Part shown: piece after piece, positions 21,001-30,000 of the stretch
How positions within the stretch are numbered: the stretch's first letter is position 1
Layout: each line of letters opens with the position of its first letter
Assembly (NCBI GenBank): GCA_964517775.1
Contig: CAZFCP010000001.1
Coordinates: 115,371 to 179,370 of the forward strand
Direction: 5' to 3'
Length of the DNA stretch: 64,000 nt
Source: an uncultured Candidatus Marinamargulisbacteria bacterium
Lineage (GTDB): Bacteria > Margulisbacteria > Marinamargulisbacteria > SXXA01 > JAHFDB01
Made by a program: the position numbers

Positions 21001-24000
21001 ATAAAAATCAAGATTGGGATATGGGGATAAAAAAGCCTCTAATTTCAGAACTTTTCCAGCCCGAATACGCTCATCCTGAGTAGCATTTGTCGGCAATGTA
21101 ATGTCTCTACAGTCCAACACAGAGCCCAGGGGTTTTTGAAGGGCCGCTTCAACCACCCGTTTCTCAAAATCTCCTTCAGTGACACCTCGTAATTGCTTTA
21201 ATTCAACAGAGCGTGCCCTAAGCTGAGGATCAGTTTTAATCGCTCTGTAAACATCATAATAGTCCTCAGAATGGATTTGCCGGATTAAGAAACGAGGCTC
21301 AACAGCCAGATGCATCACATTCAAATGCTGTTCCGGGTTCGCAGGTAAACCTGTAGTTTGTGCAAATACTTTATATTTGCTTAACAACGAGGTAGGACTC
21401 TCATCAAATGTTTTCTTCAAAAAAACATCTGGGGCTAAACGCTGTTGCATTAATTTCAACCGGCTCGGGTCAGTCACCAAAGGCCTGAATCCAGGCTTAT
21501 TATATGTGCTAACAACACAGGGTATACTCTGTGCATTACTCATCTTATCTCTCCCTTTATTTATATTACGTACACAAAATCCAGAACCCAAGTATTACCC
21601 AAACGCATACCATCCCTTTATTGGCATACAAGGAGTCTAAGGCAATTGTTAACAAAGGTCTGGCGACCACTATGTTACACACAATCGCAATTATTGTACA
21701 AAAAAATATTTTAACGGATAATTGTCAGTTTTCCGGTTTTCTTGGATTGACCGTCCGTAATCAGGTAAATATACACACCTGAAGCCACATCTTTTCCATA
21801 ACTGTTTTTACCATCCCATTTCCATAAACTTATACCAGGGCTAACCTCTCTTACAAGTTGACCAGAAATTGTATAGATTCTAATAACACTGCTATTGGTA
21901 ATACCGCTAAATGTAATTTGACCATCTATGGTTCCATTACTCATATCACTGTCATTTGGAACCCATGGATTTGGATACACAAGCACACTATCCAACGAGC
22001 CTACAAATCCGATGGATTGCGCTAATCCCCAAACACCGGTTTTATCGATGGTTACAACAACACGGCTATTTTCAACATCCATTGCATATTTAACAGCTGG
22101 TTTTTCCCAAACGCCTTTTGAGCTATTGAAGAACACCGGTGTTAATGTTGCTTTATCCACATCAGAAGCAGAAGCATTGAATGGAATGCCCACTTTAATA
22201 TCAAAACCTTTCAAGTCTATTTCAGTTGCGATGAGGTTATCAAAACTCTTCGCATAGATTTGATAGATACTCTTTTGTAGAGAAGCAGGCATCGTTAATG
22301 ATGGATCATCGAAGCTGAATGTAAAGGCATCCTGCTGTGTGCTGACACTTAAGCCTGTACGTGATGCGTACGCTTTTGGATCAAGCTGTTTGGAGAATAA
22401 TCCAACCATGTTTGCAGGTAATGAGTAGTAAGGTTGAAGGATGTCTCCGCCAGACTTAGGCGCAACAGCACCAAGGGATGCGATGGAAATCAGCGTTTGA
22501 CCGGACAGAGTTCTATGATCCCAGATCACACGGGTAGATTCGTTATACACGTCATCAGTTACTTTAAGGACGATATCTTTATTGGCAAGATCGAAGTTGG
22601 TGTTAAAGTATTTCCAAGTATTGTTGTTGTACGTTGCCACGTATTCGGATGCACCATTCACAAGAATTTGAACAGTAGCATTAGCTAGCTGGTTACCGTT
22701 AATATCCACACGCCATTTTCCGTTGGTAAAGGTGGCTTCACCGCTGGTAATGAGGTTAGTAGTTGGTGCTTTTGTACGTAAGGTTAAGCTGGCAGTCATG
22801 GTGCCAAGATTTTTCGCAAGGTCCCAGGCCTTTAAGGTTAGAGCATTAGACCCTTCGGACAAGGCGGCGTTATCTCCGCTAATCACGGTTTGAACGGTAG
22901 CCCCCTGAGCCACAGTTCCACCGGATGCAATGACCGTGCCACTGCTGTTAACCCATTGATAACTGGTTAAGGCTCTGGCTGGCGTCCACGACAGGGTAGC
23001 CTGAGTAATGCCCGCCCTGATAACACTGGACAGGTTGGCTATCAACGGATTGGAAGGCGAATTGACAACGGTTCGAGACTGATTCGTCAGCGTCAGACCC
23101 GGAGCCCCTCGTATAAAGTTAATATTAATGGTGACAGAGCCAGACTGGTTGCCGGATCGGTCGGTGAGGTAAATACGACCTGTTGATTTTTCAGGATAGA
23201 TGAAAGCAGAGAATACATCGGTACTGGTAAACCCAACCAGCTGAACACCGCTGTACCACACGGCTGAACCCACTTCTTTATTACCTGTAACCTGGAAGTA
23301 GTTTGCGGAAGAAATAGCCTCAAAAATACCTGTAGATAGATTACGAACCAGACCTCTCGTGTTTAACGTAGGGCTTGATGGAGGTGTCGTATCCTCAACA
23401 ATGGTAAAGGTTTGATAGTTCGATGTATTGTTGGTCTGATCTACAACAAAAATATTGTAGGTTGTTGTACCTCTTGGGTAGGTGATGCTGAAACTCCAAT
23501 CCACATTGGATGTAACTTCCGCAATTTTTGTAAACGATGTCGAAATGGTTCCGGCATTGTTATTAATGGATTCAAGATACACTTTATAACCAATGTTATA
23601 GTTGTCCCCCGTTGGTTTTGATCCATAAAGAACCCGGGTATTTCCAGCGTCTTCAACACGGTGTTTGGTAGCTTCGTTCAACTCTTTTACATAAACGATG
23701 CTGTTAAAGGTCACGATTTTAAAGGCTGTGGTATCCACGTGGAATTTGGTTATCCGTGGAAGAGGATCGCGGTAATCAAACTGAGTTGGCGAAAACTTAT
23801 TGGATGCGTAAACAGCCCAGTAGTAGTTACCATCCGGTAAACGGGTGTTGTAATTGGTAAATGTTGAAGGCTGCCAGCCGGAATCGTATACAGCAGCACT
23901 GTCGATATTGGTTGTAGGAGCAGGAGCAAACCAGCTGTCTACCAACCAGATTTTCAAACGGTGGTAGATGGTATCGCCGTCAGCATCTGTTGAGTTTCCC

Positions 24001-27000: not shown

Positions 27001-30000
27001 AAAGATTGGGTATGAAACCAGGCTCCCCAGCTTAAACCGTCAAAGGCCCGTGCATACAACTTAACCAAAGCTCCTCGAGGAATCGGGGAAATAGTATCCC
27101 ATCTCACACCCCAGCCGTCTTTGGGGTTTGTATCCACACCCAAATTTACAGTCACACCATCAATGTTGGCCCTAAATTCCATCTGAGTCACAATAATGCC
27201 GTTCTGGTTACCACCCAGATCTAACGTGCGACGGCTGTAAGGCTTAAACCCGCTTACGGAACTGATTTCCGAAGAAATATGAAGACCATGAATAATCCCG
27301 CTTGAAGGAAGATTGGCTGTTGTTACTTTTGTGGATTGGCTTTGCCCCGTAAAAATAGGCCCGACAGATTGAAACAACACAGACGTATTGGAAGAGGATA
27401 ACAACCCACCGGCGCTATAGTCGGAATTTGAGAGCTCATACTTAGACGACGATGAGGCTGCTAGCAACCTCAACGACAAAAAGCTCAAACAAAATAACGC
27501 CAAAAGTAGTTTTTTCATAAATATTACAGTTTCATACCAAACCCTAATCGGTAACTTTGACCTAAATCCTTTGTTGGTTTGTACGCAAAATCAATAGAAA
27601 AGGTATCAAACTGAAAACCTAAACCCATTCCAAGATTCGCAATACCGCCGTAAGTGGTATATCCCGCTCTAAAACTAAGCGGATCGCTAAGTGCTATATC
27701 AACCCCTGCACCATAGTATACCTCATCATCCTGAGGACTAACGACATCGGCATAAAGTGTAACCGGCCGATCTAAAAACTGGGATTTGGATTGAAGTCCA
27801 GCACGGATTAAAAAAGGAAGAATGGCTGTATCTGCGATATAAACGGGTCTTGTAAGAGAGATATTGTTAACAGCAAAGCCTAAAGATAAGGATGAGTTAA
27901 GCGCATACAGCACCCCGGCATCCACACCCATGGCTGTAGCGGTATTGGAATCCAGCGTCTGACTGATATATTTAACACCCACACCAAAATCCACATCCCC
28001 TGACCGTACACCATAAGCCAGTTTTAACTGATAGCCTCTGTTTTCAAACGTTCCAATTTCACTACCGATACTTGGATCATTCGTATTGATCGTGCGGGAT
28101 TGTTTACCCAGATCAATTATCCCAGCCTCTAAACCAAAATTTCCAAACGGTGTTGGAAGCCCTGTATGAACCATCTGATAGGAAACATCCTGAATATAGC
28201 CCAACTGCTGCATATTAATTTCAGTTCGACTTAAGGTAGCAAGAGACGCAGGGTTAATGGTCATGGCAGCCAGTTCGGTTCCAGCAGTCATGGCATTACC
28301 GACAGATTCCGCTTTTACAGAAGAGCTAAGTTTGGAAAAATCCATGGCAGTGGTTCCAACATCCGAAGACGCAGAAAAGGCCACCGATTGACTTAAAATC
28401 AATAGGAGCAGTACCAAACCCAGATTAAAACGTGTAAGCACTGTCATAATTTCCTCCCTAGTCTACCATTTCAATCATTTCCCTAAGAAGCTTTTTTTTA
28501 AACCTTTCACCCCAATAAAAAGCTATAAAATCAAACCTCAATGGAACTTTTTCGATGCCAGACCAGACTGATAATCAAACCACACTGTAAAACTATGCTA
28601 CAATGCGCTGAACATCTATGTTAAAAAAACTTTGTATCACTCTCTTTCTTTTTCTTTTTATGGCCTCAGGGCTTTATGCACTGACATTTCCGAAACCTCA
28701 AGGTTACGTCACAAATACTGGCGTTTTAACAGAGGAACAGGCTCGTGGATTAGCCAGACTGTCTACGGAACTGGAGCAAAAAACAGGGATTCAATGTGCA
28801 ACAGTAATAATGGAAAGCATTGACGATACGCCCGTTGAAGATGCCGCTCAGGATTTATTTAAAAAATGGGGCATTGGAAAAAAAGGCAAGGACAACGGGG
28901 TTTTATTTTTAATTGCCTTAAAAGAAAAAAAAGCAAGAATTCATGTGGGATATGGACTTGAAGGCGATTTGCCGGACGGAAAGGTTGGGGCGATTTTAGA
29001 TAAGGACGTGCTGCCTTATTTTAAAAAAGGTGAGATTGAAAAAGGCGTTATCAGTGGACATCTGGCCCTGGTTACAACCTTAGCTAAACTGCACGGAGTA
29101 GAACTCACCGGCGTACCTAAACGGCAGGTGTCTCAAAAAAGCGATATTCCTGAGTGGGTGCAGCTGCTGATGCTGATAGCCCTGGTTCTGTTTTTATGGA
29201 AAGGAAGAGGTTGGGTGTTTCTGCCACTTATTTTCATGGCAGGAGCCGGTTTCGGCGGCCGCGGACGGGACGGAGATTCAGACGGTTTCGGCGGATTCGG
29301 GGGCGGAGACTCGGGAGGTGGTGGCGCAAGCCGGGGATGGTAGGGAACTTAATCCCACCGTATACTGTCACAATACAAACTAAAGATTTATTAAAGTTTA
29401 TTAAAAAACAAGGAGTTTTTCATGGAAGGTTCACCAAAAAAGTCATCGCTTATTCTGGCTATCAGTGTTGGAGTTATTGTTGTTATATTGTTTGGATTTC
29501 TATCGATCCGCAACTCGTTTGTTGAAAAAGATGAAACCATCAACGCCTCTTGGGCACAGATTGAAAATCAGCTGCAACGTCGTTCTGATTTAATTCCAAA
29601 TCTGGTTAACACGGTGAAAGGTTATGCCAAACACGAAACAACCATCTTTACGAACATCGCCAACGCAAGAGCCCAGCTTGCCGGAGCAAAAACGCAATCT
29701 GAAAAAGTGGCTGCTGCACAGAATTTTGAATCAGCTTTATCCAGACTTCTTGTCGTGGTTGAGCAATATCCAAACTTAAAAGCAGATCAGCAATTTACAC
29801 GGTTAATGGATGAATTATCTGGAACAGAAAACAGAATTTCAGTTGAACGCAAAAAATATAACGAACATGTTCAGGATTACAACTTAACCATTAGACGATT
29901 CCCTTCAAATCTTGTTGCTGGCCTTCTTCATTATGAGAAAAAAGCCTATTTCAAAGTTGAAGAAAAAGCTAAAGAAACACCTAAAATAGAGTTCTAAACG

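What the first reader, a model, noticed from the sequence alone, without database searches (positions are those of the whole stretch)
21711..28447. 1935-aa cadherin/LamG adhesin with a T9SS-type C-terminal sorting domain and an upstream PorQ/V-like barrel
The C-terminal 90 aa fit the Por_Secre_tail pattern. An outer-membrane barrel gene sits 5 nt upstream in the same operon. This implies a type IX-like secretion and anchoring route in this organism. It also helps place the organism taxonomically, since T9SS C-terminal domains are largely restricted to FCB-group bacteria.
Basis: partly seen in the sequence, partly recalled or inferred. Interest (0 to 1): 0.5.

Follow-up and report, generated by a model that had tools for sequence, protein, structure and literature searches.

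The report
Adhesin tail paired with dedicated barrel
A giant surface adhesin carrying a type-IX-secretion-style C-terminal tail is encoded right behind its own PorQ/PorV-like outer-membrane barrel, but the organism is a Margulisbacterium (a relative of Cyanobacteria), outside the only bacterial group known to have type IX secretion.

Summary
ORF 27524-28447(-) encodes a 307-aa, 14-stranded PorV/PorQ-family barrel. Five nucleotides downstream, 21711-27518(-) encodes a 1935-aa Sec-signal adhesin. Its last 90 aa pass the T9SS type A sorting-domain model (TIGR04183) and fold like solved T9SS CTDs; the closest are PorZ and PorU.

The taxonomic inference does not hold. The nearest orthologous loci come from genomes classified as Margulisbacteria, not the FCB group. 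The literature I could search calls T9SS unique to FCB and never mentions it together with Margulisbacteria.

No T9SS core gene is in the window. The rest of the genome could not be searched.

The barrel-plus-CTD gene pair is conserved in seven orthologous loci. A second, paralogous pair exists in three of them. Adjacent pairs also occur in Endomicrobiales-type contigs and in 9 of 12 readable metagenome loci.

Best reading: a dedicated barrel docks the tail of its neighbouring cargo and holds it on the cell surface, as PorQ holds PorZ. How the adhesin crosses the outer membrane is unresolved.

I rate it a new variant of a known kind, of moderate to high interest. The 'cadherin' label is not supported by any model. 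LamG is supported only through homologues.

The parts
27524..28447 (-). Gene for a 307-aa outer-membrane barrel of the PorV/PorQ (FadL-like) family, with an N-terminal Sec signal peptide and the conserved N-terminal motif GTTAMDFSK...NPASLA
27519..27523 (-). 5-nt spacer (tattt) between the barrel stop codon TAA and the adhesin ATG; the two genes are probably co-transcribed and possibly translationally coupled
   Evidence: Sequence read directly. The same tight spacing or an overlap is seen in orthologous loci.
21711..27518 (-). Gene for the 1935-aa secreted multi-domain adhesin. The only Cys lies in the signal peptide, so the mature protein has none.
   Evidence: Orthologues are 29-65% identical in L001-L006.
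27459..27518 (-). Sec-type signal peptide of the adhesin (MKKLLLALFCLSFLSLRLLA|A)
   Evidence: Read from the translation. This is inference from the n-h-c pattern; no predictor was run.
26169..26831 (-). LamG/concanavalin-like jelly-roll region (about aa 230-450)
   Evidence: Pfam Laminin_G_3 19.1 bits, below the cutoff of 27.6. Orthologues carry precomputed PF13385, and this region matches proteins named 'LamG-like jellyroll fold domain-containing protein' at E 9.5e-49.
24444..25961 (-). Four ~110-135-aa modules each ending in a VN(D/E/Q)xP motif (aa 645, 782, 908, 1016); cadherin-like or tandem-95-type repeats, label unverified
   Evidence: Motif scan. Sub-threshold NF012211 tandem-95 hit, 29.4 bits, and CshA repeat hit, 15.2 bits. 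No Pfam Cadherin hit.
21714..21980 (-). C-terminal domain (aa 1847-1935): a T9SS type A-like beta-sandwich sorting/anchoring domain, and the most conserved part of the protein
28448..28617 (-). Intergenic region shared with the divergent TPM-phosphatase-like gene; presumed promoter region of the barrel-adhesin operon
   Evidence: Only one consensus-level sigma-70-like match (28474-28446, 9 of 12). The number of such matches in the region does not exceed the shuffled expectation. Weak evidence.

Best explanation
This is a two-gene surface-display module of a Margulisbacterium. Both proteins are exported by Sec. The 14-stranded PorQ/PorV-family barrel is inserted into the outer membrane. The adhesin's C-terminal 90-aa beta-sandwich is a type A-like CTD, closest to the CTDs of PorZ and PorU; both proteins are held on the surface by a PorV/PorQ-type barrel. 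The barrel encoded next door specifically recognises this domain. The CTD-barrel complex keeps the giant LamG/repeat adhesin non-covalently attached to the cell surface, as PorQ holds PorZ and PorV holds PorU in Porphyromonas, and as PorP/SprF barrels serve their adjacent type B CTD cargo in Flavobacterium.

Shown: the identity and fold class of both parts; their tight linkage; conservation of the pair across seven orthologous loci; a second paralogous pair; recurrence of the pairing in other non-FCB lineages.

Inferred: physical binding; surface retention without CTD cleavage; the route across the outer membrane. I think the dedicated barrel, acting without a canonical SprA/PorKLMN machine, is somewhat more likely (about 0.4) than a complete T9SS hidden elsewhere in the genome (about 0.25).

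Linkage. A 5-nt gap. The pair is conserved in L001-L006.

Paralogous second pairs. A 184-222-aa CTD protein followed by a barrel occurs in L003, L005 and L006. Barrels of the two types are 22-27% identical and their CTDs 27-30% identical, so both have diverged in parallel.

Other lineages. An Endomicrobiales MAG (L007) has a barrel at 108.5 bits, above the cutoff of 90, directly followed by a 114-aa CTD protein. The same arrangement occurs in L008 and L009 and in 9 of 12 readable metagenome loci.

Precedent for barrel-anchored CTD proteins: PMC5562754. Precedent for cognate, genetically linked shuttles: PMC12618676.
Against: No binding or localisation data exist, and no complex prediction could be run. 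A 14-stranded FadL-type barrel with a plugged lumen is not an obvious conduit for a 1,900-aa protein, so the translocation step has no demonstrated mechanism. The window barrel falls 0.7 bits short of the curated PorV_fam cutoff and far short of the PorQ and PorV equivalog cutoffs. Four loci carrying CTD proteins showed no adjacent barrel: L010, and L033-L035 (the three weakest CTD matches). Whether T9SS core genes are absent from the genome is unknown.
Confidence: 0.65

Rival explanations
1. One reading: the organism has a complete canonical T9SS (SprA translocon, PorKLMN motor and ring, PorU sortase) elsewhere in its genome. The barrel is its PorV or PorQ, and the adhesin is an ordinary type A cargo whose CTD is cleaved, after which the protein is lipid-anchored.
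For: The CTD passes TIGR04183 and resembles solved T9SS CTDs. The barrel belongs to the PorV/PorQ superfamily. NCBI names related tails in Endomicrobium 'T9SS type A sorting domain-containing protein'.
Against: No T9SS core gene is among the window's ORFs of 150 aa or more, nor among the 10 neighbouring ORFs of L002, L003 and L005 that were scanned. The literature describes T9SS as unique to the FCB superphylum, and no paper in the library links it to Margulisbacteria. In T9SS organisms, one unlinked PorV serves all type A cargo; here each CTD protein has its own adjacent, divergent barrel. The barrel scores far below the PorV (19.5 against 250) and PorQ (70.3 against 220) equivalog cutoffs. 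The related MAG nzgw235 is only 1.69 Mb.
Confidence: 0.25
2. The barrel is an ordinary FadL-type importer of hydrophobic compounds, and its position next to the adhesin has no functional meaning.
Against: Adjacency to a CTD-bearing gene recurs in 7 orthologous loci, 3 paralogous loci and 12 other loci. It occurs in both gene orders and often with overlapping stop and start codons. The same barrel HMM found only one hit in the 64-kb window. HMM similarity is to PorV/PorQ, not to FadL models.
Confidence: 0.04
3. The C-terminal domain is a generic FlgD-type Ig-like structural or binding module rather than a sorting or anchoring signal.
For: Pfam FlgD_ig is the best Pfam hit (20.6 bits, sub-threshold). 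JGI names many related small proteins 'flagellar hook assembly protein FlgD'.
Confidence: 0.06

Closest known systems
PorQ-PorZ and PorV-PorU sub-complexes of the Porphyromonas gingivalis T9SS attachment complex
   Different: The cargo is a 1935-aa adhesin, not a beta-propeller LPS carrier or a sortase. In the window the two genes are adjacent. The host is a Margulisbacterium. Equivalog cutoffs are not met. No SprA, PorKLMN or PorU has been shown.
Type B CTD cargo with cognate, genetically linked PorP/SprF shuttle barrels (Flavobacterium johnsoniae SprB-SprF and paralogues)
   Same: Each cargo has its own adjacent barrel gene. There are multiple paralogous pairs per genome. The cargo is often a giant adhesin (PMC12618676; PMC9143113, listed).
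   Different: The CTD here is type A-like (TIGR04183); only 2 of the 6 orthologues give a weak type B hit. The barrel belongs to the PorV/PorQ family, not PorP/SprF. The known system depends on the full T9SS.
Canonical type A CTD / PorV shuttle pathway of Bacteroidota
   Same: Signal peptide plus a C-terminal ~80-90-aa beta-sandwich CTD. The barrel family is the same as PorV. The predicted fold matches the RemA, NucA, RemZ and FspA CTDs solved in complex with the translocon.
   Different: In Bacteroidota a single unlinked PorV handles all type A cargo. Here the barrels are dedicated and linked. The CTD has an insertion after the YPNPW motif and a W-x-W-D-G motif shared with FlgD-Ig-type tails.
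Slam / type XI secretion and two-partner (type Vb) secretion (functional analogy only)
   Same: An outer-membrane barrel is encoded next to its dedicated substrate, and the substrate carries a conserved recognition domain. Endomicrobiales-type relatives fuse TPR repeats to the barrel, as Slam does. That comparison rests on my own knowledge plus a faint TPR_Slam Pfam hit in L008.
   Different: No sequence relationship was detected to DUF560/Slam or to Omp85/TpsB barrels. In the fused proteins the domain order is reversed, with the barrel N-terminal.

Membership tests
T9SS type A C-terminal sorting domain (TIGR04183 / Por_Secre_tail) | HMM score at or above the curated cutoff (23 bits) | tested here: met
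   25.1 bits in the full-length protein and 30.8 bits on the last 100 aa. All 6 orthologues match, best E 2.7e-9. Pfam PF18962 gave no hit at E <= 1 in the window protein.
T9SS type A C-terminal sorting domain (TIGR04183 / Por_Secre_tail) | Located at the extreme C-terminus of a protein with an N-terminal Sec signal peptide | tested here: met
   aa 1847-1935 of 1935. The N-terminus reads MKKLLLALFCLSFLSLRLLA|A. The signal peptide was judged by eye.
T9SS type A C-terminal sorting domain (TIGR04183 / Por_Secre_tail) | Ig-like beta-sandwich fold matching solved CTDs | tested here: met
T9SS type A C-terminal sorting domain (TIGR04183 / Por_Secre_tail) | Secretion depends on the T9SS translocon, and the CTD is removed by PorU with attachment to anionic LPS | not testable with these tools
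   Needs genetics or proteomics. No PorU or SprA gene was seen in the window.
PorV/PorQ family (NF033709) | HMM score at or above the curated cutoff (90 bits) | tested here: inconclusive
   The window protein scores 89.3 bits, E 3.4e-25, which is 0.7 bits short. All 7 orthologues match, best E 2e-29. The Endomicrobiales relative scores 108.5 bits.
PorV/PorQ family (NF033709) | 14-stranded FadL-type barrel with an N-terminal segment occupying the pore | tested here: met
PorQ (NF033711) or PorV (NF033710) equivalogs | Equivalog-level HMM score (220 and 250 bits) | tested here: not met
   70.3 and 19.5 bits. The protein is not an orthologue of either.
Type IX secretion system (whole system) | Presence of the core genes SprA/Sov, PorK/GldK, PorL/GldL, PorM/GldM, PorN/GldN, PorU and PorT in the genome | not testable with these tools
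   None is among the window ORFs of 150 aa or more, nor among the 10 neighbouring ORFs of L002, L003 and L005 that were scanned.
Type IX secretion system (whole system) | Host belongs to the Fibrobacteres-Chlorobi-Bacteroidetes superphylum | tested here: not met
   The nearest relatives of the locus are Margulisbacteria: nzgw235 and Marinamargulisbacteria SCGC AAA071-K20. The locus is syntenic with these contigs, and rmuC, dapA and rarA are 53-66% identical.
Cadherin domain | Match to a cadherin family model | tested here: not met
   No Cadherin family at E <= 1 in Pfam. There are only VN[DEQ]xP-terminated modules and a sub-threshold tandem-95 hit.
LamG / Laminin_G_3 (PF13385) | Pfam gathering score (27.6 bits) | tested here: inconclusive
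   19.1 bits in the window protein. Orthologues P0009 and P0010 carry PF13385, and the region matches LamG-named proteins at E 9.5e-49.

The most novel reading that the evidence does not exclude
Margulisbacteria, Elusimicrobia and other non-FCB lineages use a self-contained two-gene outer-membrane display system. A dedicated PorQ/PorV-like barrel exports and/or anchors the adjacent protein through a type A-like CTD, with no SprA translocon, PorKLMN motor or PorU sortase. This module would be the free-living relative, possibly the evolutionary precursor, of the T9SS shuttle and attachment components.
Probability: 0.35. Interest if true: 0.8.

Novelty: new variant of a known kind. Interest (0 to 1): 0.6.

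Why it matters
T9SS CTDs and PorV/PorQ barrels are treated as hallmarks of the FCB superphylum and are used as taxonomic and functional markers. In this window both occur as a tightly linked, vertically conserved pair in a sister phylum of Cyanobacteria. The same pairing recurs in Endomicrobiales-type genomes.

If a full T9SS turns out to be present, its known host range expands to a very distant phylum. If it is absent, the CTD-barrel interaction is an autonomous module. That would change how thousands of 'T9SS type A sorting domain' annotations outside FCB should be read. It would also offer a minimal two-component system for studying CTD recognition and for engineering surface display.

Margulisbacteria are uncultured and include an intracellular animal symbiont, so a conserved giant adhesin is also a candidate attachment factor.

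Tried and rejected
1. Exact look-up of the window's barrel and adhesin in the assembly index found no record, so the source genome could not be walked.

2. The single genome-contig scan, run with the barrel profile, returned only one locus, L002. The window's own genome is not among the species representatives reachable that way.

3. Cluster look-ups gave no organism names for the window proteins and little taxonomy for barrel relatives.

4. Literature searches for Margulisbacteria or Elusimicrobia together with T9SS returned nothing relevant. This is absence from the library, not proof of absence.

5. I checked the large neighbouring ORFs of L003 and L005, including the first 523 aa of a 2419-aa gene, as candidate SprA genes. 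No NCBIfam hit was found.

6. A strict adhesin-CTD HMM found no other CTD proteins in 190 kb. That was misleading: NCBIfam and a broader CTD HMM later revealed the divergent small CTD proteins.

7. I first assumed all seven loci share the proC / rmuC-dapA context. tblastn showed that L002 does not.

8. The promoter and terminator scans were no better than shuffled sequence.

9. Sequence search of the barrel profile against the PDB gave PorV as the top hit, but it was not significant (E 0.079).
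Full report
OBSERVATION. A 307-aa ORF lies at 27524-28447(-) and a 1935-aa ORF at 21711-27518(-). They are separated by the 5 nt 'tattt' between TAA and ATG. Both products begin with Sec-type signal peptides.

The adhesin's C-terminus (aa 1847-1933) scores 25.1 bits on TIGR04183 Por_Secre_tail, whose cutoff is 23. It scores 55.5 bits (E 3.5e-15) on the C-terminal part of the PorZ model. Pfam FlgD_ig (20.6) and CHU_C (15.9) are sub-threshold. On the last 100 aa alone, TIGR04183 gives 30.8 bits, the PorZ model 63.5 and the PorU CTD 19.9; FlgD models give 17.6 or less.

The barrel scores 89.3 bits (E 3.4e-25) on NF033709 PorV/PorQ family, whose cutoff is 90. It scores 70.3 on PorQ and 19.5 on PorV.

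The 'cadherin' label has no model support. There are four modules ending in VN[DEQ]xP (aa 645, 782, 908, 1016) and a sub-threshold tandem-95-repeat hit. LamG is sub-threshold in this protein but clear from homologues.

WHO CARRIES IT. Homologue searches found very few close relatives of the barrel (5) and six full-length relatives of the adhesin.

One relative (P0011, 32% identity) is named by NCBI as coming from Candidatus Marinamargulisbacteria bacterium SCGC AAA071-K20. Another (P0009, 44%; its barrel is 48% identical) lies on JAHFDB010000004.1 of MAG nzgw235. The groundwater-virus paper's supplement lists that MAG as 'nzgw235_Margulisbacteria', 1.69 Mb.

The pair sits in a shared context: rarA-yggT-proC-lemA on one side and rmuC-dapA on the other. 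This context is seen in the window, L001 and L003-L006. RmuC, DapA and RarA are 53-66% identical across these loci. L002 has the pair in a different context.

The organism is therefore a Margulisbacterium, from the sister phylum of Cyanobacteria (PMC6784892), and not a member of the FCB group. Current papers describe the T9SS as unique to the FCB superphylum (PMC12421860 abstract). No paper in the library mentions T9SS together with Margulisbacteria.

CONSERVATION AND PAIRING. Along the adhesin alignment, the last 85 residues are the best-conserved segment: 0.48-0.67 identity to the window sequence, against about 0.33 on average. All seven orthologous barrels hit PorV_fam (best E 2e-29) and PorQ (1.7e-22) more strongly than PorV (1.3e-7). 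All six CTDs hit TIGR04183 and PorZ.

Scanning neighbouring genes gave an unexpected result. L003, L005 and L006 each carry a second pair in the opposite gene order. A 184-222-aa protein consisting of a signal peptide and a CTD (TIGR04183 26.4 and 24.3 bits in L003 and L005) is followed, with overlapping stop and start codons, by a second PorV/PorQ-family barrel (61.7, 31.9 and 51.1 bits). Barrels of the two types are only 22-27% identical and the two CTD types 27-30% identical. Within a type, orthologues are 33-66% identical. This is the pattern expected if each barrel co-diverged with its own CTD.

BEYOND MARGULISBACTERIA. A profile search with the CTD returned 409 proteins. The named ones are mostly 'T9SS type A sorting domain-containing protein' from Endomicrobium, Endomicrobiales, Elusimicrobiota and Desantisbacteria, and many are only about 115 aa long.

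I looked up four of these small proteins. Three have a PorV/PorQ-like barrel gene immediately upstream (L007, L008, L009). In L007 the barrel scores 108.5 bits, above the family cutoff, and is fused to TPR repeats. L010 has no adjacent barrel.

A metagenome scan with the CTD profile gave 25 loci. In 12 of them both neighbours can be read. Nine of those have an adjacent barrel, and the three that do not are the weakest CTD matches. The barrel HMM hits only once in the 64-kb window, so the adjacency is far from chance.

The barrel family itself is large: 13,069 50%-identity representatives at E <= 1e-3. The family label also appears in Brachyspira. A PorV/PorQ-family barrel alone does not prove a T9SS.

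MECHANISM. In P. gingivalis, PorU and PorZ are anchored at the cell surface through the barrels PorV and PorQ (PMC5562754). In F. johnsoniae, type B CTD adhesins rely on cognate PorP/SprF barrels encoded next to them, whereas all type A CTDs use the one PorV (PMC12618676).

The window module combines these features. It has a type A-like CTD that is closest to the CTDs of PorZ and PorU, the two barrel-anchored attachment-complex proteins. It also has a dedicated, adjacent barrel of the PorQ/PorV family.

The best-supported model is this. The barrel recognises its neighbour's CTD and retains the adhesin on the surface non-covalently. The LamG and repeat region would then project outward as the adhesive part.

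The outer-membrane crossing step is not explained. Either a SprA-type translocon exists elsewhere in the genome, or the barrel, perhaps with BAM, does the job. The mature adhesin contains no cysteine. That is compatible with transport in an unfolded state, but it is weak evidence.

No T9SS core gene is among the window's ORFs of 150 aa or more, nor among the 10 neighbouring ORFs of L002, L003 and L005 that were scanned. Whole genomes could not be searched with these tools.

VERDICT.

The parts belong to known families, and PGAP already names such tails and barrels. What I could not find described is twofold: their obligate pairing as dedicated modules, and their presence as a conserved locus in Margulisbacteria.

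I rate it a new variant of a known kind, with interest 0.6. The decisive test is a whole-genome scan for SprA, PorKLMN and PorU in Margulisbacteria and Elusimicrobia, combined with multimer modelling or co-expression of the barrel and CTD.

Noticed in passing
L003:22679-24150(-), L005:22116-23650(-), L006:17704-19310(+): A second, paralogous module in Marinamargulisbacteria-type contigs. A 184-222-aa protein made of a signal peptide and a type A-like CTD is followed by its own PorV/PorQ-like barrel, with overlapping stop and start codons. No counterpart was found in the 64-kb window.
   Followed up: partly
L007:5847-8345(+); also L008:3762-6351, L026:3692-6318, L029:141-2794: In an Endomicrobiales MAG (L007) and three similar unclassified contigs, a ~700-aa protein is followed by a ~115-175-aa CTD-only protein. 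In L007 the large protein is a PorV/PorQ barrel fused to C-terminal TPR repeats. The function of a CTD with almost no passenger is unexplained.
   Followed up: partly
window 16372-18942(-), 10010-11119(-), 39808-40587(+): Eukaryote-like or host-interaction-type proteins: an 856-aa ankyrin-repeat protein inserted between the adhesin and rmuC relative to the other loci, a Fic/SoFic adenylyltransferase, and a dual-specificity phosphatase. This is notable because one Margulisbacterium (Ca. Ruthmannia eludens) is an intracellular animal symbiont.
   Followed up: no
window 7745-11244: A low-GC stretch (0.34 against about 0.42) carries an ORF6N-domain gene, two unannotated ORFs and the Fic gene, and ends at a tRNA-Met. 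It is possibly an integrated mobile element.
   Followed up: no
window 6487-7536(+): An unusually short secretin (349 aa). Only the C-terminal secretin domain matches GspD and PilQ models, and the usual N-domains were not detected.
   Followed up: no
window 47548-49207(-): Two overlapping ORFs (280 and 294 aa) correspond by synteny and size to the HvfC_N and MbnB/TglH/ChrH (DUF692) genes of L001. A DoxX/MauE gene lies next to them in L001. This may be a peptide-modification or metal-related cluster. The window ORFs themselves were not scanned.
   Followed up: no
window 36094-39786(+): A 1230-aa protein whose N-terminal ~300 aa resemble the nucleotide-binding part of PEP synthase and rifampicin phosphotransferase-type enzymes. 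The remaining ~900 aa have no annotation.
   Followed up: no
window 19026-21591: Between the adhesin and the ankyrin gene lie a 422-aa protein with a weak nicotianamine-synthase-like hit and a divergently oriented PLP aminotransferase. Both are absent from the corresponding position in the related loci.
   Followed up: no
window 58135-58689(-): A small (184-aa) outer-membrane beta-barrel with sub-threshold similarity to the spirochaetal TDE1717 family.
   Followed up: no
L006 (GCA_024449935.1, contig JAANSS016128034.1): A Margulisbacteria-type contig with the largest version of the adhesin (2775 aa, with extra LamG copies). It comes from an assembly whose contig numbering runs into the millions, which suggests a bacterial contig inside a large eukaryotic or environmental assembly.
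   Followed up: no
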